Source: Syntrophorhabdaceae bacterium (GTDB taxonomy: Bacteria > Desulfobacterota > Syntrophorhabdia > Syntrophorhabdales > Syntrophorhabdaceae). Taken from it: a DNA stretch of 64,000 nt. The position numbers and the translations under genes were made by a program. The DNA is taken from the NCBI GenBank assembly GCA_963665295.1, contig OY762209.1, positions 352,001 to 416,000 of the forward strand. The letters run 5' to 3'. Below the pieces are notes generated by a model. It was not told the origin of the DNA. It did not search any database and worked only from the letters and a program-made list of their open reading frames with translations. Positions 25,140-47,351 of the stretch are shown in pieces (within the stretch, counting starts at the first letter, position 1; every line of letters starts with the position of its first letter).

Positions 25140-25892
25140 TTGGAAGCAACGTGTCTCGTCATATCGGCGCTGGTCATGGAGTTCATCGACAGCTTTCTGG
25201 GTATGATGTATGGGACGGTCCTGGCGCCTCTCCTCATCATCATGAATTACGGCACGAAGGACGTAGTGCCCTCCATCCTTATTTCCCAGGCCATAGGTGG
25301 TTTCATCGCCTCCTGGCGCCATCACTGTTTCAGGAACGCCGACTTCAACCGGGGCGCCACGGACCGGCACATTGCAGTAACGATCATCTGGTTCGGCGTC
25401 TTTGCCTGCCTCGCCGGCGTATTCCTCTCCGTGTCCATATCCCCCAAAGCCCTGAATACCTATATCGGTCTTCTCGTAACCGTCATCGGCGTCCTCATCC
25501 TCTGCAGACAATCCCTTGTCCTGACCGACGGGAAGGTGTATCTCCTCGGATTCGTGAGCGCCTTCAACAAGGCCTTGTCCGGGGGTGGATTCGGCCCCCT
25601 TGTTGCGGGAGGACAGCTTGTGTTTCGCGACCGGTCCGAAAAAGGGGCCATCGGTTCCACCGACTTCGCGGAAGCCCCGATCTGCCTCTTCAGCTTTCTT
25701 CTCTGGGTAGCCTTCAAAGGATTCCCCTCCCCGCGCCTGTGGGTACCCCTCTCGATAGGTTCCGCCATCGGCGGCTTCTTCGGGCCCAGGTGCCTGAGCG
25801 CGATACAGTCAAAGGAGAAGCTGAAACGGTTGTTGGGCGTCCTGGTTCTTCTGGAAGGCGTCTGGGTCCTTTACAAGGTTTGGATCAGGTAG
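25140..25892 (+). CDS. TauE/SafE family sulfite/sulfur-compound transporter
   Basis: Multi-TM protein with DSFLGMMYGT and GGGFGP. First gene of the cysD-cysNC operon; TTG start. Confidence 0.75.
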   Translation: MEATCLVISALVMEFIDSFLGMMYGTVLAPLLIIMNYGTKDVVPSILISQAIGGFIASWRHHCFRNADFNRGATDRHIAVTIIWFGVFACLAGVFLSVSISPKALNTYIGLLVTVIGVLILCRQSLVLTDGKVYLLGFVSAFNKALSGGGFGPLVAGGQLVFRDRSEKGAIGSTDFAEAPICLFSFLLWVAFKGFPSPRLWVPLSIGSAIGGFFGPRCLSAIQSKEKLKRLLGVLVLLEGVWVLYKVWIR

Positions 25893-25896
25893 GTCC

Positions 25897-26823
25897 GTGA
25901 ACTCGTACCGGCTCTCCTATCTTCAGCACCTCGAATCGGAATCGATCCACATCATGCGGGAAGTGGCTGCCGGGTTTAAGAACCCCGTCATGCTCTATTC
26001 CGCGGGCAAGGATTCGAGCGTGATGGTGCGGCTGGCCCAGAAGGCATTCTATCCGGGCACGTTTCCCTTTCCCCTCATGCACATCGATACGGGATTCAAG
26101 TTCCCCGAGATGTACGCCTTCCGGGAGGAATTCTGCCGGAGGATCGGAGCGGAGCTTATTGTGGAGAGGAATGAACCCTGGATTGCCCGGGGTTGTCACC
26201 CTCTCACCACCGGCGTCGACAAATGTTGCAGCTATCTGAAGACGGGCGCCTTGCTCGACGCGATTCGCACCCACGGGTTTGATGCGGCATTCGGCGGGGC
26301 AAGGCGTGAAGAGGAGAAATCCCGGGCCAAGGAGCGGGTCTTTTCCCTGAGGGACGCCTCCGGTCAATGGGACCCGAAGCATCAGCGGCCCGAGTTATGG
26401 GACCTCTACAATACCCGGATCAACGAGGGAGAAACGGTGCGGGTCTTTCCCTTGAGCAACTGGACGGAGCAGGACATCTGGGAATACATCAAGGCGGAGG
26501 AGATTCCCGTGGTACCCATCTATTTCGCCTCCGAACGGGAGGTGGTCATCCGTAACGGCATACTTATCCCCCTTGCCGCCTGTTCGGCAGGCAACCACCA
26601 GACCCAAAGGGACCGGGCCGGAGAAAAGGTCGAAAGAGTCATGTGCCGGTTCCGCTCGTTGGGCTGCATTCCGTGCACCGGTGCGGTCGCTTCGAAGGCG
26701 GCCACTATCGACGACATCATCGTCGAAGTCCGGGCCGCGAGAAAATCAGAAAGGGAAAACCGCGTCATTGATCTCACGAGTGACAGCTCCATGGAACAGA
26801 AGAAGCGGGAGGGGTATTTCTGA
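25897..26823 (+). CDS. cysD: Sulfate adenylyltransferase subunit 2
   Basis: LESESIHIMRE, YSAGKDS, GGARREEEKSRAKER and MEQKKREGYF. Confidence 0.95.
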   Translation: MNSYRLSYLQHLESESIHIMREVAAGFKNPVMLYSAGKDSSVMVRLAQKAFYPGTFPFPLMHIDTGFKFPEMYAFREEFCRRIGAELIVERNEPWIARGCHPLTTGVDKCCSYLKTGALLDAIRTHGFDAAFGGARREEEKSRAKERVFSLRDASGQWDPKHQRPELWDLYNTRINEGETVRVFPLSNWTEQDIWEYIKAEEIPVVPIYFASEREVVIRNGILIPLAACSAGNHQTQRDRAGEKVERVMCRFRSLGCIPCTGAVASKAATIDDIIVEVRAARKSERENRVIDLTSDSSMEQKKREGYF

Positions 26824-28751
26824 TGCCTTACGGCGAAAAGTCCCTTCTCCGGTTCACCGCCACGGGCAGCGTGGATGACGGGAAATCCACCCTTATCGGC
26901 AGGCTCCTCTACGAGACGAAATCCGTTTATGAAGACCAGTACGAGGCGATCGAGCGGACTTCCAGGAGAAAGGGATTCAAGGAGGTCGATCTCGCCTGGC
27001 TTCTCGACGGCCTTGCCGCGGAGCGGGAACAGGGCATCACCATCGACGTGGCCCATCGCTATTTCGAGACGGATAAGCGCAAGTTCATCATTACCGACAC
27101 GCCCGGCCATGTCCAGTATACGAGAAACATGGTCACGGGGGCATCGATTGCCGATTGCGCCGTTATCCTCATCGACGCCCGGAACGGGGTCCTTACCCAG
27201 TCCAAAAGGCACGGGTTCATCCTCTCTCTCCTGCAGATCCCCCACCTCGTGGTGGCAGTCAACAAGATGGACCTCGTGGGGTACGCGGAGGAGGTCTATG
27301 CCCGCATCGTAGAGGCGTACCAGGATTATTCCCAGAAACTGGACATCCACGACATCACCTTTATCCCCGTATCAGCCCTGAAGGGGGATAACGTAGTGAG
27401 AAAGAGCACCCGCATGGGCTGGTATGAGGGCGCACCCCTTCTCCACCACCTCGAAAACATCCACGTCGCTGCCGGCAGGAACCTTGTGGACTTCCGCTTT
27501 CCCGTCCAGTATGTAATCCGTCCCCACCAGAATTTCCGGGGTTTTGCGGGAAAGATCGCCTCGGGAACCATCACCCCGGGAGAAGAGATCGTGGTCCTGC
27601 CCTCCGGGACCGGGGCCGCGGTAAAGACCATCACCACCTACGACGGCGATCTGCAAGAGGCCTTCGCCCCTCAATCGGTGGTGCTTACCCTGGACAGGGA
27701 GATCGATGTAAGCCGGGGGGACATGATCGTCCGGAAGAGGAACCTGCCCCAGGGCGAAACCCGTCTCGACGCGATGGTCTGCTGGATGGACGAGACGGCG
27801 TCGTCCATGGCCGTTTCCTACATCATGAAGCAGACGACGCGCCACGTCCGGGCAGTTATCAAAAAGATAGTCTATAAGATAGACGTGGATACCCTGCACC
27901 GGACTCCGGCCGACGCCTTTTCGCTGAACGAGATCGGCAGGGTGGAAATCTCCACCGCTTCTCCCATCTTCTTCGATCCCTATAAGGCCAACCGCGCCAC
28001 AGGCAGCTTTATCCTCATTGATCCCCTGACCCACAACACGGTTGCCGCGGGAATGATCCGGGGTGTGCCCGGCCACGTTCATGGCATCCCCGGTGGGGGC
28101 GGCCGGATAGGGAAAGAGGGGCCCATATCGCCCCACGTCGTGTGGAAGGCCGGGAACATCCCCCTCAAGGCAAGGGAAGAGCGAAACGGCCACCGCTCCG
28201 CCGTGCTCTGGTTCACGGGCTTTTCCGGCTCAGGCAAATCGACCGTCGCCGGACTGCTGGAACAGAGACTCTTCGACGCGGGCTGCCGGACCATGCTCCT
28301 CGACGGAGACCACCTCAGGCACGGCCTCTGCGGAGACCTCGGGTTCTCCGAAAAGGACCGGCAGGAGAATATACGCCGCGCAGGGGAGACGGCGAAGCTC
28401 TTCTTTGAGGCGGGGCATATCGTCCTGTGCACCTTTATCTCCCCTTTCGCGAGAGACAGGCGGTTCGTCCGTTCCCTCTTCCCGGAAAAGAGCTTCTTCG
28501 AGGTCCATGTCAAGTGCGGCATTGAGACGTGCATCAGCCGCGATCCCCACGGTCTCTATAAGAAGGCCCTCGCAGGAGATATCCCCGGGTTTACCGGCAT
28601 CAGTTCTCCCTACGAAGAACCGACGGTCCCTGAAATCGTCGTGGATACGGATTTTCAAAGTGTGGAGGAAAGCAACACCCTTCTCTTCGGCAGGCTGATA
28701 GAAGAGGGGATCGTCCCTTCATGTCCGCTTCCTCCGCAAGGCTTTTCATGA
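26823..28751 (+). CDS. cysNC: Bifunctional sulfate adenylyltransferase subunit 1 / APS kinase
   Basis: GTPase motifs GSVDDGKST, EREQGITIDVA and NKMD; C-terminal APS kinase WFTGFSGSGKST, LDGD, FTGISSPYE. Confidence 0.95.
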   Translation: MPYGEKSLLRFTATGSVDDGKSTLIGRLLYETKSVYEDQYEAIERTSRRKGFKEVDLAWLLDGLAAEREQGITIDVAHRYFETDKRKFIITDTPGHVQYTRNMVTGASIADCAVILIDARNGVLTQSKRHGFILSLLQIPHLVVAVNKMDLVGYAEEVYARIVEAYQDYSQKLDIHDITFIPVSALKGDNVVRKSTRMGWYEGAPLLHHLENIHVAAGRNLVDFRFPVQYVIRPHQNFRGFAGKIASGTITPGEEIVVLPSGTGAAVKTITTYDGDLQEAFAPQSVVLTLDREIDVSRGDMIVRKRNLPQGETRLDAMVCWMDETASSMAVSYIMKQTTRHVRAVIKKIVYKIDVDTLHRTPADAFSLNEIGRVEISTASPIFFDPYKANRATGSFILIDPLTHNTVAAGMIRGVPGHVHGIPGGGGRIGKEGPISPHVVWKAGNIPLKAREERNGHRSAVLWFTGFSGSGKSTVAGLLEQRLFDAGCRTMLLDGDHLRHGLCGDLGFSEKDRQENIRRAGETAKLFFEAGHIVLCTFISPFARDRRFVRSLFPEKSFFEVHVKCGIETCISRDPHGLYKKALAGDIPGFTGISSPYEEPTVPEIVVDTDFQSVEESNTLLFGRLIEEGIVPSCPLPPQGFS

Positions 28752-28817
28752 TGCAGCGGCACTCCCCGTAGCAAGAGGGAGTGCCGCGCCATAACAAATT
28801 TTGTCAAACCGACCGGT

Positions 28818-29351
28818 TCAGGGCCTAGCCGGGTATGTCCCATCCCAGCAGATGCAGAAGTTTAGCGCCTGGAACGGTTGCCTGTTTTCGTGGCTCTGCC
28901 CGTCGCCCCCGCTTATCTGAACGGTAAGAGGACTCAGGGAAGCGAGGTTTGCAGCGGCCTCCTTATAGAACTTGGGATTGCCGGGGGTGCCGCCCTTAAC
29001 GGCCGCCACTATCATTCCAGCCGGATTGGAGGTCGTGGCGGCTTCCTGTTCCGCATAGGCGGTGTGGGTATGGCCGGGCATCGTGTCTATCGACAATGCC
29101 ACCCCTGCGGCTCCTCTTGTCTGGCCCAGGCTCCATGGGGACAGACCCGGGCCTGTTCCCATGCCCACGGGCACCGTCTGGGAAAGGTCCGGCACGTTGA
29201 AGACTTTATTGTTGCCGCCGTAAGTATTTCCGATAACCTGATAGAGAGCCTGGTACTGCTGGACATTCACCTGCTGCCCATTGCAAAATAACCAGCCCAT
29301 CGGCTCGTAGTCATATGTAAACACTCTGATTTCACCGACAAATCCATCCAT
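28818..29351 (-). CDS. Phage tail collar domain protein (MdpB-like), type C, copy 2
   Basis: GEIR...GWLFCNGQ...PDL, HTH, HENRQP, FCIC. Confidence 0.9.
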   Translation of the reverse strand: MDGFVGEIRVFTYDYEPMGWLFCNGQQVNVQQYQALYQVIGNTYGGNNKVFNVPDLSQTVPVGMGTGPGLSPWSLGQTRGAAGVALSIDTMPGHTHTAYAEQEAATTSNPAGMIVAAVKGGTPGNPKFYKEAAANLASLSPLTVQISGGDGQSHENRQPFQALNFCICWDGTYPARP

Positions 29352-29366
29352 AGCATCCTCCTCTCG

Positions 29367-29888
29367 TTATTGGCCTGAAGGGAACAGCCCGCTTGCTGCG
29401 ATAATGAAATTGACGCATGACGAAGGCATTATGTTCGCATGGGGCATGCCTCCTCCGGTGCTCATTATTGCCCTCGGATCGAGGGCCATGGGATTTGTCT
29501 TCGCGTCATACAAAGGAACATCCGCTGCCGTTACAGCCGGCATCACCCCCGTCCCCGGCATGGCGGTCGCAGCCGCAGCCGGGGAAGCCGCCAGTCCGTG
29601 AGCGTGCGGGGGCCATCCGTCTGCGGGGACAACCACCGCTTCCGTGCCGAAATACTGGCCTATTGGCCTTGGAGTCAGCCCCGTTCCGGCGCCCTGGCCT
29701 ACGGGGAGCCTTCCACGAAAGTCGGGTACGCAAAAAGTCTGTGCACCGTTGCCGCCAAAAGTCGTACTCAGCACGGCAAAGAGGTTGGGGTACTGCGATA
29801 TGGGCAGCTCACTCCCATCACATAACAGCCATCCCTGGGGGGCATAGTTTCCCGCAAACATCTTTATCTCTCCTATAAAAGGTTGCAT
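29367..29888 (-). CDS. Phage tail collar domain protein, type B, copy 2
   Basis: GEIKMFAGNYAP.GW..CDG, PDFRGR, HAH, HANIMP, NFII. Confidence 0.9.
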   Translation of the reverse strand: MQPFIGEIKMFAGNYAPQGWLLCDGSELPISQYPNLFAVLSTTFGGNGAQTFCVPDFRGRLPVGQGAGTGLTPRPIGQYFGTEAVVVPADGWPPHAHGLAASPAAAATAMPGTGVMPAVTAADVPLYDAKTNPMALDPRAIMSTGGGMPHANIMPSSCVNFIIAASGLFPSGQ

Positions 29889-29908
29889 TGTTCCCTCCTT
29901 ATGTTTTC

Positions 29909-30418
29909 CTATTGCCTCGACGGATAGAGCCCCGTTGTCGCTATGTAATACGCAGCCACAAGGGATGGTTGCATGTTGCTGTGGCTCTGTGCGCCGCCCG
30001 AAGAACTCGTGCTGTCGTCCATTGCCACTGTGTTGGCGGGCGCTCCGTACAAGTTCGTGGTAGATGCGGCAAGGAGCCGGTTGGAATTCGTTCCCACCCC
30101 GGGCTTGTCGGCATTTTCAGAGCTCCCTATGTACCCATGCATATGGGGCGGAACGGTAACCGTACTCAGAGCCACCGTTTCCGCGCCCCCCATGGTCCCT
30201 ACCACGCAAGCCCCGTAGAAAAACATCGGGGTCCTCCCCCTTAAGTCGGGGATACCGAAAGTCGCCTTTCCGTCTCCGCCGTACCGGATGCCGAGAAGAG
30301 CATAGAGTGCCTGGTTTTGCGCAATCTGCAACAACCTCCCGTCACACGGGAGCCACCCGTACATGTCCTTCACGAACCCCATCAATCTTATTTCACCTAA
30401 ATAAGGTTCCATCGCCAT
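29909..30418 (-). CDS. Phage tail collar domain protein, type A, copy 2
   Basis: GEIR...GWLPCDG, PDLRGRTP, HMH, HSNMQP. Confidence 0.9.
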   Translation of the reverse strand: MAMEPYLGEIRLMGFVKDMYGWLPCDGRLLQIAQNQALYALLGIRYGGDGKATFGIPDLRGRTPMFFYGACVVGTMGGAETVALSTVTVPPHMHGYIGSSENADKPGVGTNSNRLLAASTTNLYGAPANTVAMDDSTSSSGGAQSHSNMQPSLVAAYYIATTGLYPSRQ

Positions 30419-30528
30419 ACCTCCTCTGTTTGATTAGAAAACCTTTGTCCGAACTCTCTTCCTCGAAGGTCCACCTCCATTCCGTGGCAGGATACCGACC
30501 TCGTAACAGATCCGTCGATCAACCCGTT

Positions 30529-31071
30529 TCATCCAGGCCGGCGCGGAAATATCCCGTCATAACAGATGCAAAAATTCACCGCCTGGCACGGTTGCATGTT
30601 GTTATGGCCCTTCCGGTCACCCGACAACTCAACAGCAGCCTTGTCCAGGTAAACCAGGTATTGCGCCTGAGCGTTCGCTCTATAGAACTGCGGGTTGCCC
30701 GGGGTACCGGCCTTGACCGAAGCGACTATCATCCCTGCCGGGTCCGAAGTCGTGGCGTTTTCCTGCTCCGCATAAGCCTGGTGGGAGTGACTCGGTATCT
30801 GGTCGGCAGTCAGCGACACGAGCGTTTCCCCGCCCGCTGCGCCCAGACGCCATGGGGACAAGCCCTGGGCAGCCCCCATGCCTACGGGTACGCGGCCCTT
30901 CAGATCAGGCAGATTGAAGCCTTTGGCGTCGCCGCCGTAAGTGTTTCCGATCACCGCGTAGAGAGCTGCATACTGCCGAACGCTCACTTGCTGCCCGTTG
31001 CAGAAGAGCCATCCCTGAGGCTCGAAGTCAAACGAAAACGTCCTTATTTCACCGACATATGGGTCCGCCAT
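30529..31071 (-). CDS. Phage tail collar domain protein, type C, copy 1
   Basis: GEIR...GWLFCNGQ, PDLKGR, HSH, HNNMQP, FCIC. Confidence 0.9.
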   Translation of the reverse strand: MADPYVGEIRTFSFDFEPQGWLFCNGQQVSVRQYAALYAVIGNTYGGDAKGFNLPDLKGRVPVGMGAAQGLSPWRLGAAGGETLVSLTADQIPSHSHQAYAEQENATTSDPAGMIVASVKAGTPGNPQFYRANAQAQYLVYLDKAAVELSGDRKGHNNMQPCQAVNFCICYDGIFPRRPG

Positions 31072-31084
31072 AATATCCTCCTTG

Positions 31085-31606
31085 CTATGGGTTTGAAGGG
31101 AATTCTCCGCTCGTGGCGATAATGAAATTGATGCATGATGAAGGCATCACGTTCGCGTGGGGCTGGTTGCCTCCCGCAACCCCTATCGCCCTCTGATCAA
31201 GGGGCTTGCGGTTTGTCTTTGCGTCATACAAAGGGACCTGGGGCGACGTCTTCGCCAACACCACTTCCTTGCCCGGCGTTCCGGTCACGACCCCCTCCGA
31301 GGAGGCCAGCAACTTGTGATTGTGAGGGGGGCACCCCGTCAATGATATTGTCGCCGTTTCCGCACCGAAGTACTGACCCATCACCCTGCGGGTCAACCCC
31401 GTTCCGAGGCCCTGGCCGACCGGGACCCTCCCGCGCAAGTCGGGCACGCGAAATTTCATCACGCCGTCGCCGCCGTAAGTGATACCCAGCAGGGCAAAGA
31501 GGGCCGGGTTCTCCCCTATGGACAATTCGCTCCCATCACACAGGCACCATCCGTCGGGGGCAAAGTCCCCGGCAAACATTCTTATTTCCCCTATAAAGTT
31601 TTCCAT
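31085..31606 (-). CDS. Phage tail collar domain protein, type B, copy 1
   Basis: GEIRMFAGDFAP, PDLRGR, HNH, HANVMP. Confidence 0.9.
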   Translation of the reverse strand: MENFIGEIRMFAGDFAPDGWCLCDGSELSIGENPALFALLGITYGGDGVMKFRVPDLRGRVPVGQGLGTGLTRRVMGQYFGAETATISLTGCPPHNHKLLASSEGVVTGTPGKEVVLAKTSPQVPLYDAKTNRKPLDQRAIGVAGGNQPHANVMPSSCINFIIATSGEFPSNP

Positions 31607-31623
31607 GGTTCCCTCCTGTCTTC

Positions 31624-32130
31624 CTATTGCCGTTGCGGATACAGCCCCAAGGACGCGATGTAATACGCGGTCACCACCGACGGCTGCATGTTGTCGTGGC
31701 CTGTAATACCGTCCCCCACAGGGTCCAGATCGTCATCCATGGCCACCATATGGACGGGCCCTCCGTACAGGTTCACGGTGGATGAGGCAAGGAGCCGGTT
31801 CGAACCTGTCCCTACCCCGGGTTTGTCGGCACTCTCCGTGGTCGCCGTAAACCCGTGACTATGAGGAGGAGTGTTGGCCGTGGCGAGGGCCACCGTCTCT
31901 GTGCCGACTTTAGCTCCCACACTGTAAACTCCGTAGAAATGCATGGGGGTCCTTCCCCTCAGGTCCGGAAGGCAGAAGGTCGTTTTCCCGTCCCCGCCGT
32001 ACCGGGACCCGAGAAGGGAATAGAGCGCCGGGTAGTCCTTGGTCTGCAATGTTCTCCCGTCACAGGGGAGCCATCCATAGATTTCCTTCACGAACCCCAT
32101 CATTCTTATTTCACCTACAAAAGGTTCCAT
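31624..32130 (-). CDS. Phage tail collar domain protein, type A, copy 1
   Basis: Start MEPFVGEIR at 32130 with GGAGG RBS; PDLRGRTP, HSH, HDNMQP. Confidence 0.9.
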   Translation of the reverse strand: MEPFVGEIRMMGFVKEIYGWLPCDGRTLQTKDYPALYSLLGSRYGGDGKTTFCLPDLRGRTPMHFYGVYSVGAKVGTETVALATANTPPHSHGFTATTESADKPGVGTGSNRLLASSTVNLYGGPVHMVAMDDDLDPVGDGITGHDNMQPSVVTAYYIASLGLYPQRQ

Positions 32131-32164
32131 CGTTGCACCTCCATTCGATTTGAGACCTTTTCGC

Positions 32165-32683
32165 TCATAGCCGCAGTGCATCCCTCTCCATAGAGTAGTA
32201 GATCCCCCGGAATTCCTTCTCTCTGAAACCAAGGACCTTGTAAAAGTCCCTGATCGTGTTGTTCACCTCCACATGAAGGCTCATCGCAAGGCCCCGGGCA
32301 TCGGCTTCCCGGACAAGGTCCCTCATGATTCCGCCTCCTGCGCCCCTTCCCCTGAATTCCGGCAGCAGAGCGATGTCGATTACCCGTATTCCGTCTTTGG
32401 TCCGATGGACATAAAGCCTTCCCACAGGCTCGCCGTCAATAGATACGATGCTGAAAGATGCGCCGGGATAGTTCTGTGTGTATTGGATGTGCTGAAGCCT
32501 GAACTGCATCCGGAGGAACGCTTCGACCTGACCTTCGCTCCATCCTGTGAGGGCCATTTCGTCACGCCGCGTAGAGGCATACACGCGGTAGAGAAATTCC
32601 GCATCGTCCTCTGCTATGGGACGTAACGTAATGTTTTCAGATATGATTCCGCTTATTTGAGAACCTTTCGGTCCCTCCCCCAA
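32165..32683 (-). CDS. GNAT N-acetyltransferase of the type linked to tail-collar triplets
   Basis: YASTR..E, QF..Q...Y...YP, DIALLPEFRGRGAG, LHVE.NN...FY..LGF. TTG start. Confidence 0.88.
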   Translation of the reverse strand: MGEGPKGSQISGIISENITLRPIAEDDAEFLYRVYASTRRDEMALTGWSEGQVEAFLRMQFRLQHIQYTQNYPGASFSIVSIDGEPVGRLYVHRTKDGIRVIDIALLPEFRGRGAGGGIMRDLVREADARGLAMSLHVEVNNTIRDFYKVLGFREKEFRGIYYSMERDALRL

Positions 32684-33011: not shown

Positions 33012-33317
33012 ATGATAAAGAAAAGCGTTTCAACGGAAAGCATCGTCCACCAGGTTGAAGAAATTGTCGCGAGTGACATCGACGATGAGAAGGTCATGAT
33101 GAGTGTTGAAAAGGGCCGGTACTATAGCCTCGACCGCGTCGGCAGCCGTGTGTGGGACCTCATCCAGGAGCCCGTCATGGTGTCGGACCTGATTGACACG
33201 CTTCTCGGAAGATACGATGTGGACCGGGAGACCTGTGAAGAAGATGTGCTGGAGTTTCTTGAAGAGCTCCATGATGAAGGTATATTGCAGGTGAGGGATA
33301 CGGAGACTCATCTCTAG
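33012..33317 (+). CDS. PqqD-family RiPP recognition element (lasso B1/E protein)
   Basis: DIDDEKVMM....GRYYSLD.VGSRVW...L...YDV....C..DV..FL..L. AAGGAG RBS. Confidence 0.9.
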   Translation: MIKKSVSTESIVHQVEEIVASDIDDEKVMMSVEKGRYYSLDRVGSRVWDLIQEPVMVSDLIDTLLGRYDVDRETCEEDVLEFLEELHDEGILQVRDTETHL

Positions 33318-33320
33318 GGG

Positions 33321-35288
33321 ATGTCCTGTAATTGGCGTTCCCGGCCGCGGGCCGGGAGGGCGGCACGCGTAAAGATCCGGAGGGTCAGGGAGATCGTGTT
33401 CTTCTTCTATTTCAGCCGTGTAGGTCCATTGTCGGCGCATCGGGTCGATCCTCACGCCGTTATCCGGCGACTTATGCCCTTCACCCCGCCTGACAAGAGC
33501 GGGTTTCTCGCCAATGACGGAAAAGGCCTGCTGATCCAATGCCTCCACTGGAATACCGCCCGGTCGCGGCTGGAGCCGGCCCCGCTGTATCACGCCCCGA
33601 GTCAGGCAGCCGCAGCGTCGTGGGCTCGTCTCGACAACCGCGCCGAGTTGGGGGAGAAGCTGGCCATCGCTCCGGCGGATATGCACAAATTTTGTGATAC
33701 GGAGTTGATCCTCCTCGGTTATCTGAAATGGCAGGAGGCCTGCGTTGACCACCTGATCGGAGACTTCGTATTTGTCATTCACGACCAAAGACACCAACGG
33801 ATCTTTTGCGCCCGGGACCATATGGGGGTCCGTCCACTCTATTACTATGCGTCCGACGACGTGTTCGTCTGCGCCACCGGCCTTACCGCTTTTTTGGGTC
33901 TTGAAGGCGTGTCCATAGAGGTTCAGCAACAATGGGTCGCGGAATACCTGATCCACGCCTCCATGGACTTCGAGCGCACTCCCTATAAAGGGATTAAAAA
34001 GGTCCCTCCTGCTCACTGCCTGTCGGTCACCCCGGACAGGATACTGTTGCGCCGGTATTTTGAACTGTCCCCGGAACCGCCGCTCGTGCTTAAGGATTCC
34101 CGGGAATATGTAGATGCATACAGGACGGTCCTCGAAAGGGCCATCGAGTGCCGGCTGGACTCCGAGTATGCCGTCGGAACCGAACTCAGCGGCGGCATCG
34201 ATTCTTCCACCATAACCGCCTACGCGGCAAAATTTCTCGAGCGTTCCCTGTCGGGCCTGCATACCTTCGCCTTTGCGTTTACCGAACTGGAACCGCAATA
34301 TGTCCTGGCCGTGAGCCGGGCCTGCCGCCTGCCCAACAACCACATCTTTGCGGGCAGCGAGACTGACCCCCGGGCAGTGTTGCAGCGCTCGCTGAATATT
34401 CTCGGCTACCCCGTCGAACATGGCAACGCAACGACCCATGAGCCGTTTTACCGGCTGGCGGAAAAACTGGAAGTCAGGACGTTGCTCTCCGGTTTTGGCG
34501 GGGACGAGTTCGCGACAACCATTTACGGCCATCTTGTTCCCCTGGAAATGATTACGAAGCGCCGGTTCCGTGACCTTTTCAATATCCTTCCGGGCAACGC
34601 CCTTTTCCGTTTTCTCCGCCTGGCCAAGATGGAGTTGCGGCGCCGCAGGACGCATAATTTCGAAAACCTCGTCTACAACACCCAGTTCCACAAAGCATTC
34701 AGGATGCGCTGGCCCCACAGGATCGTCCGCGAAGAAGTCGTCAAAAAGTACGGCCTTGAAGAGCGCTTTTTTGATGGAGCCCGTTTCGATGCGGGCTACA
34801 CGGATCTCAAACGTTTCGCCCTGGAAAGACGGTGGCGGCCCTTTGTGCCGACAAGGATGGAAAACTGTACGCTAATGGCGGCAGGCAGAAGGATCGAATA
34901 TCGCTGGCCTCTGCTCGATATCCGGCTGGTGCGGCTGTTTCTGTCGGTTCCGTCGGAAGAACAGTACTACCGCGGGACGAACCGCTACCTGCACCGCCGC
35001 GCCATCGACGGCATTGTGCCGAAAATGGTAACCTGGAAGCAGGGCAAGAATATGGGGACCGCAATGCCGCCGGATCACCACAAGCCAAATAGTTTGCTCC
35101 AATTCTCGGTCTCCGATCTGCATCCTGCCCTTGCCGAATATATTGATGCCGGGAAGTTGGGACAACAGATGGACCAACTGTCGTCTCTCCGGGATAACGG
35201 TGAAGATTTGATCAGAAGGATGCAGTCGGTCAGAAATATCCGGGCAGTCACCTATCTTTCGTCATGGATGAAATATCTTGAAATATAA
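33321..35288 (+). CDS. Lasso peptide cyclase (asparagine synthetase-like, C protein)
   Basis: ARLDNR, GDF.F, ARDHMGVRPLYY, LSGGIDSS, SGFGGDE, P.LD.RL. No N-terminal Cys of a glutaminase domain evident. Start may be GTG 33396. Confidence 0.88.
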   Translation: MSCNWRSRPRAGRAARVKIRRVREIVFFFYFSRVGPLSAHRVDPHAVIRRLMPFTPPDKSGFLANDGKGLLIQCLHWNTARSRLEPAPLYHAPSQAAAASWARLDNRAELGEKLAIAPADMHKFCDTELILLGYLKWQEACVDHLIGDFVFVIHDQRHQRIFCARDHMGVRPLYYYASDDVFVCATGLTAFLGLEGVSIEVQQQWVAEYLIHASMDFERTPYKGIKKVPPAHCLSVTPDRILLRRYFELSPEPPLVLKDSREYVDAYRTVLERAIECRLDSEYAVGTELSGGIDSSTITAYAAKFLERSLSGLHTFAFAFTELEPQYVLAVSRACRLPNNHIFAGSETDPRAVLQRSLNILGYPVEHGNATTHEPFYRLAEKLEVRTLLSGFGGDEFATTIYGHLVPLEMITKRRFRDLFNILPGNALFRFLRLAKMELRRRRTHNFENLVYNTQFHKAFRMRWPHRIVREEVVKKYGLEERFFDGARFDAGYTDLKRFALERRWRPFVPTRMENCTLMAAGRRIEYRWPLLDIRLVRLFLSVPSEEQYYRGTNRYLHRRAIDGIVPKMVTWKQGKNMGTAMPPDHHKPNSLLQFSVSDLHPALAEYIDAGKLGQQMDQLSSLRDNGEDLIRRMQSVRNIRAVTYLSSWMKYLEI

Positions 35289-35335
35289 ACCGAAACATGT
35301 AATAGAATAAGAATCATACCAGGGGGTGGTGAATC

Positions 35336-35566
35336 ATGCCGACTACACGGGCAAAAAAGGGAATTGGCGATGCGGGAACCACATGCAACGATTCGCTCCG
35401 GAACGAATCACCTGCTGTCCACCCAGTCGGTGGGACGGACGATCTGGAACCTTGGAGCAGACCTCGCATCCTTCATAGGACTTGCGCCGGTCAAACCGGA
35501 ACAAAGTATCATTATACCAGCGAAAGTTCTCCTACAGAGGCAATATCCATATACGGCCCGTCATAG
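35336..35566 (+). CDS. Lasso peptide precursor (76 aa)
   Basis: Short ORF between cyclase and kinase. Leader motif W-x-x-P-x-I (WSRPRI) and Thr at -2 give predicted core TKYHYTSESSPTEAISIYGPS with Glu8 and C-terminal Ser. Confidence 0.8.
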   Translation: MPTTRAKKGIGDAGTTCNDSLRNESPAVHPVGGTDDLEPWSRPRILHRTCAGQTGTKYHYTSESSPTEAISIYGPS

Positions 35567-35593
35567 AATCATCCGGGTCATAAACCATATTAT

Positions 35594-35625
35594 CGGCAGG
35601 GACGTGGCGCGCCCCATCCCTGCCG
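35594..35625 (+). terminator. Stem-loop after the precursor gene
   Basis: CGGCAGGGA...TCCCTGCCG, a 9-bp perfect stem. Typical position for boosting precursor mRNA relative to downstream genes. Confidence 0.45.
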
Positions 35626-35704
35626 GGACATCTTTTGACGCGAACCGCGAAGGTCGCAACCTTCGACGGGCAAAGTATTTTCCCGGCGGCTAACCGGATA
35701 TCAC

Positions 35705-36607
35705 ATGGAAAACATGTATCGCATTTTCGGATTGGACATCTTCTCCGTCATCCCCCTCCCGTCCCGTTCCGTTGTACCGGCCCGGCAGGACGGCACCCCG
35801 GATGTAATCATCTCGTATGGCGAAACACCGGCTGCCCTGACAAATCCCCGCAAGAAAGGGGTGCGCTATCAGGCTGCGCCGGGAGAGTTTTTGCTTCGGG
35901 TGGACAATGTCGCCCACTATTATGTGCAGCACGGCAGCCGCATCACCGTCATGCCTGAAGCCGGGGCGGATGATGACGATATCCTTCTCTTCCTCATGGG
36001 TTCTGTCATGGGGGCGCTTCTCCATCAGCGCAATGTTCTGGTGCTCCATGCCGGCGCGATAGCGGTGAACGGGGAGAGCGCGGTTTTTTGCGGCCCTTCC
36101 GCTGTCGGAAAATCCACTCTCGTAGCCGGTTTTCTTCGGCGGGGCTATCCCTTCCTTGCCGATGACGTGTGCGCCATAACATCAGGCGACGGGCGTCCGG
36201 CGGTGATTCCCGGGTTTCCCCGCGTGAAGGTGTGGGCCGATGTCCTGACGAAACTGAACACCCGGAACGATACACTCAAGAGTATCCGGCGGGGGATGGG
36301 AAAGTATTTTCTGCCTATTGATTGTATCCAGGAATCCCCGGTGCCCATCAGGTCCGTGTTCGTCCTTGAGACCACCAGTACCGGCAGGATGGAAATCACG
36401 GCTTTAAGGGGCGCCGACAAGGTCGGCCCTCTCATCGACAACACCTATCGCTTGCCCTTTTTACGGGGTCTGGGCAAAGGAAAGGACCACTTCACCCAGT
36501 GTGCGGCGGTTGCGGCCGGAACCGACGTGTTCCTGACGGTCCGTTCCAGAACGACGTTTTTGCTTGATGAACTGCTGGATATGGTGGAGGCGAAACTTCT
36601 GTCATGA
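35705..36607 (+). CDS. HPr-kinase-like lasso peptide kinase (PadeK/ThcoK-like)
   Basis: LHAGAI, Walker A GPSAVGKST and LADD. Directly downstream of the precursor. Confidence 0.85.
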   Translation: MENMYRIFGLDIFSVIPLPSRSVVPARQDGTPDVIISYGETPAALTNPRKKGVRYQAAPGEFLLRVDNVAHYYVQHGSRITVMPEAGADDDDILLFLMGSVMGALLHQRNVLVLHAGAIAVNGESAVFCGPSAVGKSTLVAGFLRRGYPFLADDVCAITSGDGRPAVIPGFPRVKVWADVLTKLNTRNDTLKSIRRGMGKYFLPIDCIQESPVPIRSVFVLETTSTGRMEITALRGADKVGPLIDNTYRLPFLRGLGKGKDHFTQCAAVAAGTDVFLTVRSRTTFLLDELLDMVEAKLLS

Positions 36608-37464
36608 AGGGCATCATATGGCTCGCTTCGTATCCTAAATCGGGAAACACCTGGTTTCGCGTCTTTCTTACCAACCTGCTCCGTGATGCGGATGCCCCCG
36701 CAAACATAAATGAACTGATACCTACGCCCATCGCCAGCGACAGGGACGTCTTCGACCGCGATATGGGATTTGAGGCGTCGGACCTGAGTGCGGATGAGAT
36801 CGACCGCTTGCGTCCCGAACTCTATATCCACCTTGCCGAAAACGCCCTGAAGCCGCTCTTCATGAAAATCCATGACGCCTACACTGAGGTCTCGAAGGAT
36901 ATGCCTTCTATTCCCCGGGAGGCCACGGGGGGCTGCCTTTATTTCATCCGGAACCCCCTGGACGTGGCGGTCTCCTTTGCCCATCACAACGGCTTGACCC
37001 TCGACACCGCCATATCCTTTATGGCTGATGAGAATCGCGCTCTTTGTGGCAAATCGGACCGGTTGTACCCCCAGTTGCGCCAGAAGCTCTTCTCCTGGAG
37101 CCGTCATGTTCTGAGTTGGGTCGATTTCGCCCCATTCCCCTTATGTGTCCTCCGCTATGAAGATATGAAAACGGATGCCCTGAAAACCTTTGAAAAGGCG
37201 GTGCGTTTTGCAGGCCTTCCCCACACCTGGGACCAGGTCCTGAGAGCCGTCAATTTCAGCTCCTTCAAGATCATGCAGCAGCAGGAGCAGAAAGATGGCT
37301 TCCGCGAAACCAGTCCCCTGGCCGACCGATTCTTCCGTAAAGGCAAGATAGGGTCATGGCGCGACGAGCTTAGCGTTGAACAGGCCCAACGGATTGTCCA
37401 CGACCACCGGGAGGTCATGCGCCGTTTCGGCTATCTCGACGAAAACGACGGGTTAGCCTTTTGA
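36604..37464 (+). CDS. PAPS-dependent sulfotransferase (Sulfotransfer_1 type)
   Basis: 5'-PSB loop SYPKSGNTW, 3'-PB RNPLDVAVS, RYEDM and RKGKIGSW. ATGA overlap with the kinase. Confidence 0.9.
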   Translation: MKGIIWLASYPKSGNTWFRVFLTNLLRDADAPANINELIPTPIASDRDVFDRDMGFEASDLSADEIDRLRPELYIHLAENALKPLFMKIHDAYTEVSKDMPSIPREATGGCLYFIRNPLDVAVSFAHHNGLTLDTAISFMADENRALCGKSDRLYPQLRQKLFSWSRHVLSWVDFAPFPLCVLRYEDMKTDALKTFEKAVRFAGLPHTWDQVLRAVNFSSFKIMQQQEQKDGFRETSPLADRFFRKGKIGSWRDELSVEQAQRIVHDHREVMRRFGYLDENDGLAF

Positions 37465-37492
37465 CCCACGTGAAATCACGGAGATTCAGCGC

Positions 37493-38833
37493 ATGAGTTA
37501 CGGGTCCGTTATCGCAAAGTACAGGAATATGCATCGCCAATCGAATCCGGAAGAAATTTCTGCTCTTTGGAAAAGAAGCACGCCCGGTTTGAATATCTAT
37601 GTACACAGCCCCTTCTGCCCTTCGGTCTGCGGCTTCTGCCACTACAGGGGGAAAGAGTTTCATTTCGAAAAAGACTATTCCCTATATAGAAAATATTATT
37701 ACGATTATTTACCCCGAGCTATCGCGCCCTTTCTCCCGATCATAGAGTCCCGTCAAATCGGAAACTACTTCTTTGGCGGTGGCACCCCCAGCTTGATGAG
37801 GCCCGAAACCATGTCTTTCATTTTTGATATATTTCCCGGGTTCAAAGATGTGAAGTCGAAGACCTTTGAAATTCATCCTGCCGTCTGGACAGAGGAACAA
37901 CTCGATGTTCTCGCCATGTATGGCTTTAACTGCTGTATTATAGGCGTTCAATCCTTCGATGAATCGGTGCTTGACAGGCAGGGTCGACTCTATGCAACAA
38001 GGGAGCAGATCAGGGGCTTGGCGCGGAAGGTCAAGGACCGGGGAATGTATCTGGCCATAGACATGATCTATCGCATGGACCCGGTCGACGCCGATGAGAT
38101 CTTCAGGCAGGACCTCGCATTTCTACCCGAGCTCGATGCCGACATTATCAGTTTGCAGGACAACTTTAATGAATTGTACGAAGATGAAAAGATTAAGAGG
38201 TTCTTTGAAATCGTCTGCGATTCACCCCTGGCAGCCGACTACTATTGGGAAGAAGCTACAGGGGAAAATCCGGTAATGTCCCTCGATGAGAAAAGAACCA
38301 GGAAGGCGGTGCGTTATCTGCGAAACGACTTGCCACATGAAACATATTCCAATGAGATATTTACATTTTTGAAAACAATAGATGAATGTTCGAAACACTT
38401 CTCGAAAGGTGCGGGATATCCGTCATTGATAGGGTTCGGTTCATATCAGAATAGCCGCAAGAACACATTTTCCTCCATTCGTGCACGTCAACACATCCTG
38501 GAATATATCGAAGTAAATAATAATTGGAGCCCGGAGTACTACATTACTTTCGATGAAGACCGGCGGAAACTTTTTGATGAAACAGTGGAGCTGATGAAAC
38601 GGTTCAAGACATTAGGCGATCCTCCTCCCGGGATCGTCGTCAGCATCATCAACAGACCGGCGATAAGGGACGACCAATGCGTCTTGCGCAAACCCCATGT
38701 TCTGGTAGGGTTGGAAATATCGTGGAAAGAACGGACAGTTGCCGTTGATGAGTTTATCGCAGGAATTAAGGCCGTTTTTCAGCACACACTCGATGGTCCG
38801 TCTTCAATGCTGATTGTGGGAAGACGATCATGA
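37493..38833 (+). CDS. HemN-like radical SAM enzyme
   Basis: IYVHSPFCPSVCGFC (CxxxCxxC), GGGTPS, GVQSFD. C-terminal half divergent from HemN. Confidence 0.85.
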   Translation: MSYGSVIAKYRNMHRQSNPEEISALWKRSTPGLNIYVHSPFCPSVCGFCHYRGKEFHFEKDYSLYRKYYYDYLPRAIAPFLPIIESRQIGNYFFGGGTPSLMRPETMSFIFDIFPGFKDVKSKTFEIHPAVWTEEQLDVLAMYGFNCCIIGVQSFDESVLDRQGRLYATREQIRGLARKVKDRGMYLAIDMIYRMDPVDADEIFRQDLAFLPELDADIISLQDNFNELYEDEKIKRFFEIVCDSPLAADYYWEEATGENPVMSLDEKRTRKAVRYLRNDLPHETYSNEIFTFLKTIDECSKHFSKGAGYPSLIGFGSYQNSRKNTFSSIRARQHILEYIEVNNNWSPEYYITFDEDRRKLFDETVELMKRFKTLGDPPPGIVVSIINRPAIRDDQCVLRKPHVLVGLEISWKERTVAVDEFIAGIKAVFQHTLDGPSSMLIVGRRS

Positions 38834-38893
38834 CCATGGGAAGGTCCTGCCTCTCTCCGGGAGTCCCGATGAAGACGGGAAGATTGGCCTGCA

Positions 38894-39376
38894 ATGAGGT
38901 ATAATACGTACATGACGGCATGTTTCAGATTCTTTAGGGGACTCCCCGCCAAGTGGCGCCGCCGCACCGGGGCGGAGCGGGCGTCCCTCGTGGAAGCGTT
39001 CCTGCTCCTGGGTGTCGCCCGTTTTACAGTCCTGGTCCTGCCCTTCAGGTGGCTTGCCGTATCATTGGGCAGACATATGTCGGAGACCGGCGCGCAGGCG
39101 GATTTCTCCGATCTTCGTCGCGCCCGGATAGTGGGTCAGGCCGTTTGTTCAGCCGCACGTTACACCCCCTGGGAGAGTGTCTGTCTGTCCCAGGCTGTAG
39201 CCGCCAAATGGATGCTGAAACGTCGCCATGTCGCCGGCACGCTCTATCTCGGCGTGGCGAAAGACGAGACAAACCCGGAGAGACTCGCCGCCCATGCGTG
39301 GCTTCGTTGCGGCGGCACGATCATCACGGGCAGGGAGGGCTACCGGCGTTTTACTGTGGTAGCCGTTTTTTCCTGA
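38894..39376 (+). CDS. Lasso peptide leader peptidase (B2, transglutaminase-like)
   Basis: PWESVCLSQA (catalytic Cys), LYLGV, AHAWL (catalytic His). Confidence 0.9.
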   Translation: MRYNTYMTACFRFFRGLPAKWRRRTGAERASLVEAFLLLGVARFTVLVLPFRWLAVSLGRHMSETGAQADFSDLRRARIVGQAVCSAARYTPWESVCLSQAVAAKWMLKRRHVAGTLYLGVAKDETNPERLAAHAWLRCGGTIITGREGYRRFTVVAVFS

Positions 39377-39434
39377 TGAGACGTCTCTCCTCCACCGACA
39401 GGGATAAGACCCGGGACAATTCTCCGTGCTGCCC

Positions 39435-41255
39435 ATGATCAAACAGCTTCTCGACGCTGTCCGGAGGCTGAGGCAGCAACTCCCCTATCTGCCCAAGGCC
39501 TTGCGACTGGTTCACCGTGCGGCGGGCGGGCTCACACTTACATGGCTGGCCCTGTTGATCCTTCAGGGCTTGTTGCCTGTTGCAGCGGTCTACCTGACCC
39601 GGACACTCGTGGACGGCGTGGCGGGAATGATCGGCTCAGGGAACGGGTGGGCGGCTTTAACACCCCTTCTCCCCGCGGGCCTTGCCATGGCAATGGTCCT
39701 GATCGCAACTGAGGTACTCCAGGGCATCGGCAAATGGGTGCGCACCGCCCAATCCGAGCAGGTGCAGGATTACGTCCATGAGCTTATCCATGAACAGGCG
39801 ATAAGGCTCGATCTCTCCTTTTACGACGACCCCGGTTACTACGACCAACTGCACCGCGCCCGGGTAGATGCCATAACCCGCCCTGCCGCCCTGATCGAAA
39901 ACGCGGGCACTTTGCTGCAAAGCCTCGTCACCCTGGCAGCCATGGGGGCCGTCCTCTCCACCTTCGGCATATGGATTCCCTTGCTCCTGGCCGCGAGCAC
40001 CCTGCCCGCTTTCCTCGTCGTGCTCCGCCACACAATCCACTTTCACGGATGGCGGCTCCGCAACACCACCGCCATCCGCAAGACCACTTACTATGATATG
40101 ATGCTCACCCAGCGCGAGGCGGCGGCGGAGGTGCGCCTCTTTGGTCTCGGCCCTCATTTTCGCGCACTTTTCAGGGACCTGCGGGCGCGGCTCAGGCGGG
40201 AACAGGTTGAGCTTGCCCGCAGCGAGGCCACGGCCCACGCAGGGGCGGCCCTTATCGGTCTCGCGAGCATGGCGGGGGCCCTGGTCTGGATGGGTCTTCA
40301 GGTATTGAAAGGGGCAGTGAGTCTGGGCAGCCTTGCCCTTTTTTATCAGGCCTTTTACCAGGGTCAGCGCATGATGCGGTCGGTCCTGGGCAGCACCGGG
40401 GAGATTTACCGCAACATCGTGTTCCTGGAGAACCTTTTTGAATTTCTTGCGCTCAAGCCCCGCGTCGATTCACCGGAGAAACCCCTCCCTCATCCCGGTC
40501 TGAAAGGAGCCCTCGAACTTCAGGACGTCACCTTCCGTTATCCCGGCACGGCGCGGGCCGCCATGGAGCGTTTCACCCTCCGTATTCCCGCAGGGCGAAT
40601 CACCGCCCTGGTGGGAGAAAACGGCGCAGGCAAAACCACCCTTATCAAGCTCATCTGCCGCTTCTATGACCCCGAAGAGGGGCGGCTGACCATGGACGGG
40701 ACGGACATCCGCGCCCTTTCCCTTCCCGCGCTCCGGCAGCGCATCACCGTGCTTTTTCAAGACCCCGTGCGATACCACGACACGGTCTTCAGCAACATCG
40801 CCTTCGGGGATATCGGCAGCAATCCGTCATTGGACCGCATCGCCGACGCGGCCCGGTGCGCGGGGGCCGATGGGCCCATAAGCCGCTTGCCTAAAGCCTA
40901 TGAAGCCGTCCTCGGAAAATGGTTCGGCGGTGCCGAACTGAGTGGGGGAGAGTGGCAGCGCCTCGCTTTGGCGCGGGCATTCCTGAGGGACGCGGAGTTC
41001 ATCATTCTCGATGAACCCACGAGCGCCATGGATTCGTGGGCCGAGGCCGACTGGTTGCTCCGTTTTCGCGAACTTGCCGAGGGACGGACCGCCCTGATTA
41101 TCACCCATCGCTTCACCACCGCTTTGCATGCGGACATAATTCATGTCATGGACAAAGGCCGCATTGTGGAGTCCGGCAGCCACGAGGACCTGCTGGCCGC
41201 GAAAGGCAGGTACGAGTCGTCATGGACCCGCCAGATGCGGCAGAGGGGCAACTGA
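39435..41255 (+). CDS. ABC exporter, fused permease/ATPase (lasso D protein)
   Basis: TM domain plus GENGAGKTT, LSGGEWQRLALARAF, LDEPTSAMD and ITHRF. Confidence 0.92.
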   Translation: MIKQLLDAVRRLRQQLPYLPKALRLVHRAAGGLTLTWLALLILQGLLPVAAVYLTRTLVDGVAGMIGSGNGWAALTPLLPAGLAMAMVLIATEVLQGIGKWVRTAQSEQVQDYVHELIHEQAIRLDLSFYDDPGYYDQLHRARVDAITRPAALIENAGTLLQSLVTLAAMGAVLSTFGIWIPLLLAASTLPAFLVVLRHTIHFHGWRLRNTTAIRKTTYYDMMLTQREAAAEVRLFGLGPHFRALFRDLRARLRREQVELARSEATAHAGAALIGLASMAGALVWMGLQVLKGAVSLGSLALFYQAFYQGQRMMRSVLGSTGEIYRNIVFLENLFEFLALKPRVDSPEKPLPHPGLKGALELQDVTFRYPGTARAAMERFTLRIPAGRITALVGENGAGKTTLIKLICRFYDPEEGRLTMDGTDIRALSLPALRQRITVLFQDPVRYHDTVFSNIAFGDIGSNPSLDRIADAARCAGADGPISRLPKAYEAVLGKWFGGAELSGGEWQRLALARAFLRDAEFIILDEPTSAMDSWAEADWLLRFRELAEGRTALIITHRFTTALHADIIHVMDKGRIVESGSHEDLLAAKGRYESSWTRQMRQRGN

Positions 41256-47311: not shown

Positions 47312-47351
47312 GGGATCTTCATATAAAGCAGTCTCGTCGTAAACGCCGCCG

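What the first reader, a model, noticed from the sequence alone, without database searches (positions are those of the whole stretch)
33012..41255. Lasso peptide cluster with three tailoring enzymes: kinase, sulfotransferase and radical SAM
Seen: co-oriented RRE, Asn-synthetase-like cyclase, short precursor, HPr-kinase-like gene, PAPS sulfotransferase, HemN-like radical SAM, B2 peptidase and ABC exporter. Known: B1+B2+C+D define lasso biosynthesis, and paeninodin-type kinases phosphorylate the C-terminal Ser; this precursor ends in GPS. Inference: a multiply modified (phospho, sulfo and radical-SAM-derived) lasso peptide from a probable anaerobe. I am not aware of this combination having been characterised.
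Basis: partly seen in the sequence, partly recalled or inferred. Interest (0 to 1): 0.85.

Follow-up and report, generated by a model that had tools for sequence, protein, structure and literature searches.

The report
Sulfate-linked lasso cluster, passenger radical enzyme
This is a real gene cluster for a small knotted (lasso) peptide that is probably phosphorylated and perhaps sulfated; clusters of this type were already predicted in anaerobes, and the extra radical-SAM gene looks like a swappable add-on whose target is unproven.

Summary
All eight genes are present and intact, and catalytic motifs are kept. The cluster is larger than reported: tail-collar genes, a GNAT, TauE and cysD/cysNC (PAPS supply) lie at 25140-32683 and recur beside orthologous clusters (collar 5 of 8, cysD/cysNC 4 of 8). 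Kinase (8/8) and sulfotransferase (7/8) are conserved; that pairing is in print as a prediction (Letzel 2014), and I found no characterised sulfated lasso peptide. The HemN-like radical SAM gene is not conserved: 0 of 8 orthologous loci, and 1 of 401 phylum genomes (its own). It fills a slot where relatives carry other enzymes, and 42 loci of its distant relatives show no lasso genes. In its favour, its nearest relative probably shares a contig with a close cyclase homologue. The precursor departs from its family at the cut site (Thr1-Glu8, or Gly1-Glu9 with Gln at -2), and this copy lacks the family's ATP-grasp and nucleotidyltransferase genes. The scan already noted kinase/sulfotransferase lasso clusters with tail-collar genes in other genomes, but not this radical SAM insert. 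Verdict: new variant of a known kind; triple modification about 17% likely.

The parts
33012..33317 (+). Stand-alone RRE (B1, PqqD-like)
   Evidence: PF05402; NF033536 109 bits over cut-off 80; in 8 of 8 orthologous loci
33396..35288 (+). Asn-synthetase-like lasso cyclase (C), 630 aa from GTG; no N-terminal Cys, SGGIDS ATP loop kept
   Evidence: distinct subfamily, 119 homologues listed at 45-73% identity
35336..35566 (+). Precursor (A), 76 aa: WxxPxI leader motif, Thr54, ring acid Glu63, C-terminal Ser76; core starts at Thr56 (21 aa) or Gly55 (22 aa)
35705..36607 (+). HprK-like peptide kinase (K)
   Evidence: 7 of 8 residues of the H-G-G-G-K-S-D-D motif of PMC10368454; 8 of 8 orthologous loci
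36604..37464 (+). PAPS-dependent sulfotransferase, start overlapping the kinase stop
   Evidence: PF00685; top solved relatives Teg12/Teg14; PAPS motifs kept; 7 of 8 loci
37493..38833 (+). Uncharacterised HemN-like radical SAM enzyme in the variable slot between sulfotransferase and B2
   Evidence: CxxxCxxC, Tyr36, GGGTP, Asp190 invariant in 38 aligned members; HemN/NocN match over the N-half only; 0 of 8 orthologous loci
38894..39376 (+). B2 leader peptidase; only PF13471 gene in the genome
   Evidence: NF033537 above cut-off; Cys and His kept
39426..41255 (+). MsbA-type ABC exporter (D)
   Evidence: 71-75% identical in 5 orthologous loci
32165..32683 (-). GNAT acetyltransferase heading the tail-collar cassette
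   Evidence: PF00583; 71% identical to the GNAT beside the G489 cluster
28818..32232 (-). Six small phage-tail-collar proteins, a duplicated triad
   Evidence: PF07484 on the 3 scanned; paralogues 61-65%; 1717-1718 nt duplication; collar gene in 5 of 8 orthologous loci
25140..25892 (+). TauE/SafE-family transporter
   Evidence: PF01925; 72-78% identical to TauE genes between B2 and ABC in G489 and G541
25897..28751 (+). cysD and cysNC (ATP sulfurylase plus APS kinase): PAPS supply
   Evidence: cysNC NF004035 above cut-off; cysD read from its translation; both beside 4 of 8 orthologous clusters; cysNC also on the G022 cluster contig

Best explanation
The locus is one member of a conserved family of kinase-plus-sulfotransferase lasso-type operons, mostly in Desulfobacterota-type anaerobes. 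Shown: genes, motifs and conserved linkage. Inferred by analogy to paeninodin: the RRE binds the WxxPxI leader; K phosphorylates Ser76 of the linear precursor; B2 cuts the leader; C activates Glu63 with ATP and closes an 8- or 9-residue ring; the ABC exporter secretes the product. Inferred from gene linkage only: CysD/CysNC make PAPS and the sulfotransferase puts sulfate on the peptide, on a Ser/Thr hydroxyl or here possibly a Tyr. The radical SAM gene is an accessory passenger in an exchangeable slot. It probably does two-SAM, HemN/class C-type one-carbon chemistry, but more likely than not it is not a dedicated lasso-tailoring enzyme.
For: In 8 orthologous loci: RRE 8, C 8, K 8, sulfotransferase 7, B2 7 (G569 ends inside K), a matching precursor 8. 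This sulfotransferase type occurs in only 2 of 96 class genomes (3 copies), each time directly behind the kinase. cysD/cysNC flank 4 of 8 loci in different arrangements. The slot between sulfotransferase and B2 is empty in G489, holds TPR + formyltransferase in G639 and G689, a second sulfotransferase and the precursor in G649, and an unassigned 260-aa ORF in G541, G649 and G689. The radical SAM family was found in 1 of 96 class and 1 of 401 phylum genomes, both times G000 itself; five orthologue-bearing genomes have only generic N-half matches. 0 of 17 cellular/metagenome loci and 0 of 25 viral loci of the family carry a lasso gene. No RRE-type Pfam domain in the enzyme.
Against: The nearest radical SAM relative (P0002, 70%) and a top cyclase homologue (P0159, 73%) both list an ENA contig of 112,140 nt, so the pairing probably exists in a second lineage. 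The 42 lasso-free loci are all distant members (49% or less), 7 of the 17 cellular/metagenome ones are under 5 kb, and none belongs to the window's own subclade P0001-P0006, whose neighbourhoods I could not read. The gene's low GC3 (0.544) is only at the 8th percentile of 475 ORFs. The cyclase and kinase score below curated cut-offs. The precursor junction is off-pattern. This copy lacks the ATP-grasp (7 of 8 loci) and nucleotidyltransferase (6 of 8) genes. Six of the 8 loci come from one family and are not independent.
Confidence: 0.45

Rival explanations
1. One reading: kinase, sulfotransferase and radical SAM all modify the peptide. The radical SAM would add a SAM-derived carbon to an sp2 position (Tyr or His of the ring, or the tail Tyr), giving a phospho-, sulfo-, C-methylated lasso peptide.
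For: Co-oriented with 28 and 60 nt gaps. The SAM-II-stacking Tyr (HemN Tyr56, NocN Tyr34) and the NocN Asp196 equivalent are invariant. Probable second lineage with both genes. The core has 3 Tyr and 1 His, against 0-1 Tyr in nine relatives. Unrelated radical SAMs recur in such clusters (G489, G022, second cluster of G000).
Against: 0 of 8 orthologous loci; 0 of 42 family loci with lasso genes; no RRE domain. G689 has ring His and Tyr without this enzyme. Only 1 of 119 listed cyclase homologues shares a long-contig length with a family member.
Confidence: 0.17
2. Only the kinase acts on the peptide. The sulfotransferase, PAPS genes, GNAT and radical SAM serve a co-located surface-modification module (tail-collar proteins, secreted proteins or glycans) interleaved with the lasso genes.
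For: Collar genes sit in or beside 5 of 8 loci, with GT41, glycosyltransferases or formyltransferases. The radical SAM family neighbours 2OG-Fe oxygenases, a sulfotransferase, HlyD exporters, an RTX protein and phage head genes. Four close precursors lack Tyr although the nearest solved sulfotransferases are Teg12/Teg14 and phenol sulfotransferases. A kinase-sulfotransferase pair without precursor or cyclase lies between transposases elsewhere in G000.
Against: The sulfotransferase stays directly behind the kinase in G459 and G546, which have no collar gene in 40 kb. Every precursor offers Ser/Thr hydroxyls.
Confidence: 0.2
3. This copy is reduced or makes no lasso: having lost the ATP-grasp and nucleotidyltransferase genes and the family's Thr-x-Gly-Lys junction, it yields only a linear phosphopeptide or nothing.
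For: Both gene absences (the single PF14397 and PF14907 genes of G000 lie elsewhere). Either register breaks one norm. Two family precursors place the acid at position 10 or 11 (G639, G649). The cyclase is below the NF033535 cut-off.
Against: All frames are intact with catalytic residues kept; leader motif and Glu are in register. Unusual first residues (Asn, PMC12670498) and -2 residues (Ile, PMC10368454) are tolerated in other systems. G459 also lacks both genes.
Confidence: 0.15

Closest known systems
Paeninodin-type kinase lasso clusters (PadeK, ThcoK, SyanK), from PMC8498205 section 8
   Same: Split B1/B2, cyclase, ABC exporter, HprK-like kinase, precursor ending in Ser; some Firmicute clusters carry a putative sulfotransferase.
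   Different: Distinct cyclase subfamily below the NF033535 cut-off; Gly-Lys...Glu8 cores; kinase-sulfotransferase overlap; own cysD/cysNC and TauE; tail-collar genes; HemN-like radical SAM.
Predicted anaerobe lasso clusters of Letzel et al. 2014 (PMC4289311), including Pelobacter propionicus Ppro_0050
   Same: HPr kinase and sulfotransferase noted, roles unknown. A P. propionicus DSM 2379 asparagine synthase (P0259) lies in a 90% cluster whose representative is 64% identical to the window's cyclase; that it is Ppro_0050 is my inference.
   Different: The passages I read mention no radical SAM, PAPS genes or tail-collar genes, and say the precursors were mostly not assigned.
Pseudomycoidin (psm) and Bradymonas bsf clusters
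   Same: Kinase plus split B and exporter; orthologues of this cluster carry an NTP_transf_5 gene as these do; kinase motif shared with BsfK.
   Different: The window's copy lacks the nucleotidyltransferase; BsfK acts on Ser3, while this family conserves a C-terminal Ser; neither is reported with a sulfotransferase in what I read.
HemN-like / class C radical SAM enzymes (HemN, NosN/NocN, TbtI, C10P)
   Same: CxxxCxxC, SAM-II Tyr, GGGTP and the Asp196 equivalent; N-half matches 1olt and 9p2u.
   Different: Residues 223-446 do not align with HemN/HemW profiles (only a language-model lead to HemN_C); NocN Tyr96 and Arg153 are replaced by Phe and Cys; separate long-branch family.

Membership tests
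Lasso peptide cluster | RRE + B2 peptidase with Cys/His + Asn-synthetase-like cyclase + exporter, linked | tested here: met
   cyclase best hit NF033535 but 337 < 525 bits
Lasso peptide cluster | Leader motif [Y/W]xxPx[L/I/V] | tested here: met
   WSRPRI at 40-45, same six residues in G489; motif as in PMC13381572
Lasso peptide cluster | Asp/Glu at core position 7-9 | tested here: met
   Glu63 is position 8 or 9 in the two registers
Lasso peptide cluster | Thr at -2 together with a usual first residue (Gly, Ser, Cys, Ala) | tested here: inconclusive
   Thr(-2) gives Thr1; Gly1 gives Gln(-2); both cannot hold
Lasso peptide cluster | Isopeptide ring with threaded tail in the product | not testable with these tools
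   Needs expression, MS and NMR
Paeninodin-type phosphorylated lassos | HprK-like kinase with H-G-G-G-K-S-D-D motif | tested here: met
   7 of 8 residues, Ala133 at the second Gly; family scores below cut-off
Paeninodin-type phosphorylated lassos | C-terminal Ser in the core | tested here: met
   10 of 10 family precursors, 15 of 15 aligned
PAPS-dependent sulfotransferase | 5'-PSB loop, catalytic His, 3'-PB motif | tested here: met
   PF00685 86 bits; motifs conserved in 10 aligned sequences; motif names recalled
Lasso-dedicated radical SAM tailoring enzyme | Conserved co-occurrence with the lasso core | tested here: not met
Class C radical SAM methylase | CxxxCxxC and second-SAM-binding residues | tested here: met
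   Cys42/46/49, Tyr36, Asp190 invariant; Tyr96 and Arg153 equivalents differ
Class C radical SAM methylase | HemN-like C-terminal domain | tested here: inconclusive
   No PF06969 hit, no profile alignment past residue 222; Atlas lead 0.93; no model obtained
Class C radical SAM methylase | One-carbon transfer to an sp2 carbon | not testable with these tools
   Needs anaerobic assay
HemN / HemW / HutW housekeeping enzymes | Full-length match above curated cut-off | tested here: not met
   63-78 bits against cut-offs of 205-597, N-half only

The most novel reading that the evidence does not exclude
The operon makes a lasso peptide closed between an N-terminal Thr and Glu8, phosphorylated on its last Ser, sulfated from its own PAPS supply and C-methylated on a ring Tyr or His by an uncharacterised HemN-like radical SAM family, and the exported peptide works with the tail-collar proteins at the cell surface. 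That would be a first sulfated and first radical-SAM-tailored lasso peptide as far as my searches reach, and a first substrate for an enzyme family also carried by T4-like phages.
Probability: 0.12. Interest if true: 0.8.

Novelty: new variant of a known kind. Interest (0 to 1): 0.45.

Why it matters
Sulfotransferases in lasso clusters have been noted since 2014 and I found no report of their activity. This family couples the enzyme to the kinase and to a PAPS supply and has small, well-defined precursors, so the question is directly testable. The radical SAM gene belongs to an uncharacterised HemN-like family of at least 66 relatives, spread over bacteria, archaea and phages; this locus offers a concrete candidate substrate, even though the genomic evidence leans against it. 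A ring closed from Thr1 would widen the known range of lasso first residues.

Tried and rejected
Precursor homology search found nothing and NCBIfam has no model for the 15 aligned precursors; the family was built from neighbourhoods instead. Cyclase searches of 61 relatives and 401 phylum genomes gave only distant cyclases of 36% or less; close orthologues came from the class of G159. No structure of the radical SAM enzyme was obtained (job interrupted, unfinished), so no fold search was run. No RNA holder listed. Promoter and terminator counts were at chance level (7 vs 4.9; 6 vs 9.9). No repeats mark the ends of the radical SAM gene among those shown. Low GC as proof of recent insertion: weak. 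Assembly error at the precursor junction: rejected. Housekeeping HemN/HemW: rejected. Tyr as the family-wide sulfate acceptor: rejected. Contig-length matching gave one further hit, 4701 nt from different sources, taken as chance; 10 more cyclase clusters gave no match to P0003 or P0006. PMC4919450 was not held. The search returned only unrelated sulfation chemistry. The tree is the quick version.
Full report
Observation. Family scans give PqqD/NF033536 above cut-off for the RRE, Asn_synthase for the cyclase with NF033535 as best model but below cut-off (337 vs 525), weak HprK hits, PF00685, PF04055 with weak HemN-type hits, NF033537 above cut-off for B2, and an MsbA-type exporter. Homologues fix the cyclase start at 33396. 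B2 keeps Cys and His, the kinase keeps 7 of 8 residues of the lasso-kinase motif given in PMC10368454, and the sulfotransferase keeps its PAPS motifs. The listed long contig pieces from two studies match with no differing letter.

Wider locus. Upstream lie a GNAT and six tail-collar genes on the minus strand (a duplicated triad), then TauE, cysD and cysNC. The cyclase defines a subfamily with 119 listed homologues at 45-73% identity; names given by sources include Geobacteraceae, Syntrophorhabdus, Desulfobacteraceae and Pelobacter, from which I infer an anaerobic Desulfobacterota-type host. Eight of 401 genomes in the class of G159 carry the subfamily, six at 62-67% and two at 38-39%. In 20-40 kb around them, tblastn found RRE 8, kinase 8, sulfotransferase 7, B2 7, ABC 6, collar 5, cysD+cysNC 4, TauE 2, GNAT 1, radical SAM 0; G569 ends inside the kinase. 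An ATPgrasp_ST gene lies beside the cyclase in 7 and an NTP_transf_5 gene in 6; the window's cluster has neither. Six of the eight are one family, so these counts are not independent. Ten more distant cyclase loci showed no collar gene, some on short contigs.

Precursor. Each of the eight loci has a small ORF of the pattern WxxPxL...T-x-G-K...E...S. The four closest have Trp at -15, Thr at -2, Gly1-Lys2 and Glu8. The window's peptide fits as TKYHYTSESSPTEAISIYGPS (Thr at -2, Thr1, Glu8) or one residue longer (Trp at -15, Gln at -2, Gly1, Glu9). PMC12670498 lists Gly, Cys, Ser and Ala as examples of observed first residues and adds Asn; PMC10368454 reports Thr at -2 in all earlier precursors and adds Ile (passages). 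Either reading is unusual, neither excluded. All ten family precursors end in Ser; four lack Tyr, although the nearest solved sulfotransferases are Teg12/Teg14 and phenol sulfotransferases.

Radical SAM. It has 66 relatives at E 3e-24 or better; beyond them the hits mostly cover the N-half. The cluster cysteines, the SAM-II-stacking Tyr and the NocN Asp196 equivalent are invariant (PMC12871812 passages); the C-terminal half does not align with HemN/HemW. The family was found only in G000 among 96 class and 401 phylum genomes (four candidates scored per genome) and not in five orthologue-bearing genomes. In the five orthologues with the same gene order, its slot is empty or holds other genes. 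Seventeen cellular/metagenome and 25 viral loci of the family show no lasso gene; neighbours are 2OG-Fe oxygenases, HlyD exporters, an RTX protein, a sulfotransferase, carbamoyltransferases, other radical SAMs and T4-like phage genes. Against this reading: those loci are 49% identical or less; the window's enzyme lies in a well-supported subclade P0001-P0006 (quick tree) whose contexts I could not read; and its sister P0002 shares an ENA contig length of 112,140 nt with cyclase P0159. Among 66 x 119 lengths the only other match was a short one from different sources. The linkage therefore probably exists in two lineages about 30% apart, but is patchy.

Mechanism. Shown: genes, motifs, linkage. 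Inferred by analogy (PMC8498205 section 8): leader binding, C-terminal Ser phosphorylation before cyclisation, cleavage, ring closure on Glu63, export. Inferred from linkage only: sulfation with locally made PAPS. Speculative: radical SAM action on the peptide, and any role of the collar proteins.

Literature. PMC4289311 (passages) reports HPr kinase and sulfotransferase genes in predicted anaerobe lasso clusters, roles unknown, and lists P. propionicus Ppro_0050. PMC8498205 (passages and section 8) notes putative sulfotransferases in Firmicute clusters. PMC10040529 (passages) lists B2, PqqD, asparagine synthase and sulfotransferases co-occurring. A 2026 review, PMC13352647, has no word starting with 'sulfo' or 'radical' in its main text. 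PMC13381572 passages give the WxxPxL motif. Searches (listings only, apart from the papers named) showed no characterised sulfated or radical-SAM-tailored lasso peptide; one search found no paper with both 'lasso peptide' and 'tail collar'. Zhu 2016 (PMC4919450) was not held, subscription papers are missing, and I read no supplements; large genome-mining tables may list this family.

Earlier scan notes. Two notes describe collar genes inside lasso clusters in other genomes and several describe kinase/sulfotransferase sets with other radical SAM types; none matched this enzyme by sequence or this place.

Verdict. Observation confirmed, interpretation partly supported. New variant of a known kind; interest 0.45.

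Noticed in passing
L001:7605-13070 (G000:C1:5483604-5489069, minus strand): Second lasso-like cluster in the same genome: RRE, cyclase, precursor (Thr at -2, Gly1, Asp7/Asp8, C-terminal Ser), GT2, kinase and a SPASM-type radical SAM; no B2 or exporter of its own. The window's B2 is the only one in the genome, so it may act in trans.
   Followed up: partly
L002:9844-11297 (G000:C1:2283843-2285296): Kinase plus shortened sulfotransferase pair between two transposase genes, without precursor or cyclase.
   Followed up: partly
window 28818-32232: Tail-collar triad duplicated at 1717-1718 nt spacing with 72-75% DNA identity; collar genes lie inside the operon in four orthologues, with DUF6916 and an unassigned 270-290 aa protein.
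   Followed up: partly
L210 and L212 (G022:C52): Same-family genome with cysNC, B2 (70%), ABC (83%), nucleotidyltransferase, RRE, a different radical SAM, kinase, sulfotransferase, methyltransferase and two cyclase-precursor pairs on the opposite strand.
   Followed up: partly
L224:17046-18284 and equivalents: ATPgrasp_ST gene beside the cyclase in 7 of 8 loci; with Lys near the core N-terminus in 9 of 10 precursors, it may acylate or cross-link that Lys (untested idea).
   Followed up: no
L231:6283-6462; L230:2815-2982: Two family precursors place the first acidic residue at core position 10 or 11, outside the usual 7-9.
   Followed up: no
L238-L262: The radical SAM family is common in phage contigs, often right after T4-like head genes or among oxygenases, halogenase-like and carbamoyltransferase genes; PHROGs has no model for it.
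   Followed up: partly
L039, L040: Family members sit in runs of four or more radical SAM genes next to Cys-rich ORFs of 260-310 aa.
   Followed up: no
window 46283-50831: RHS/YD-repeat protein followed by an RHS-InlB-BACON surface protein; the surface module has more than ten paralogues in the genome, one just upstream of the second cluster.
   Followed up: no
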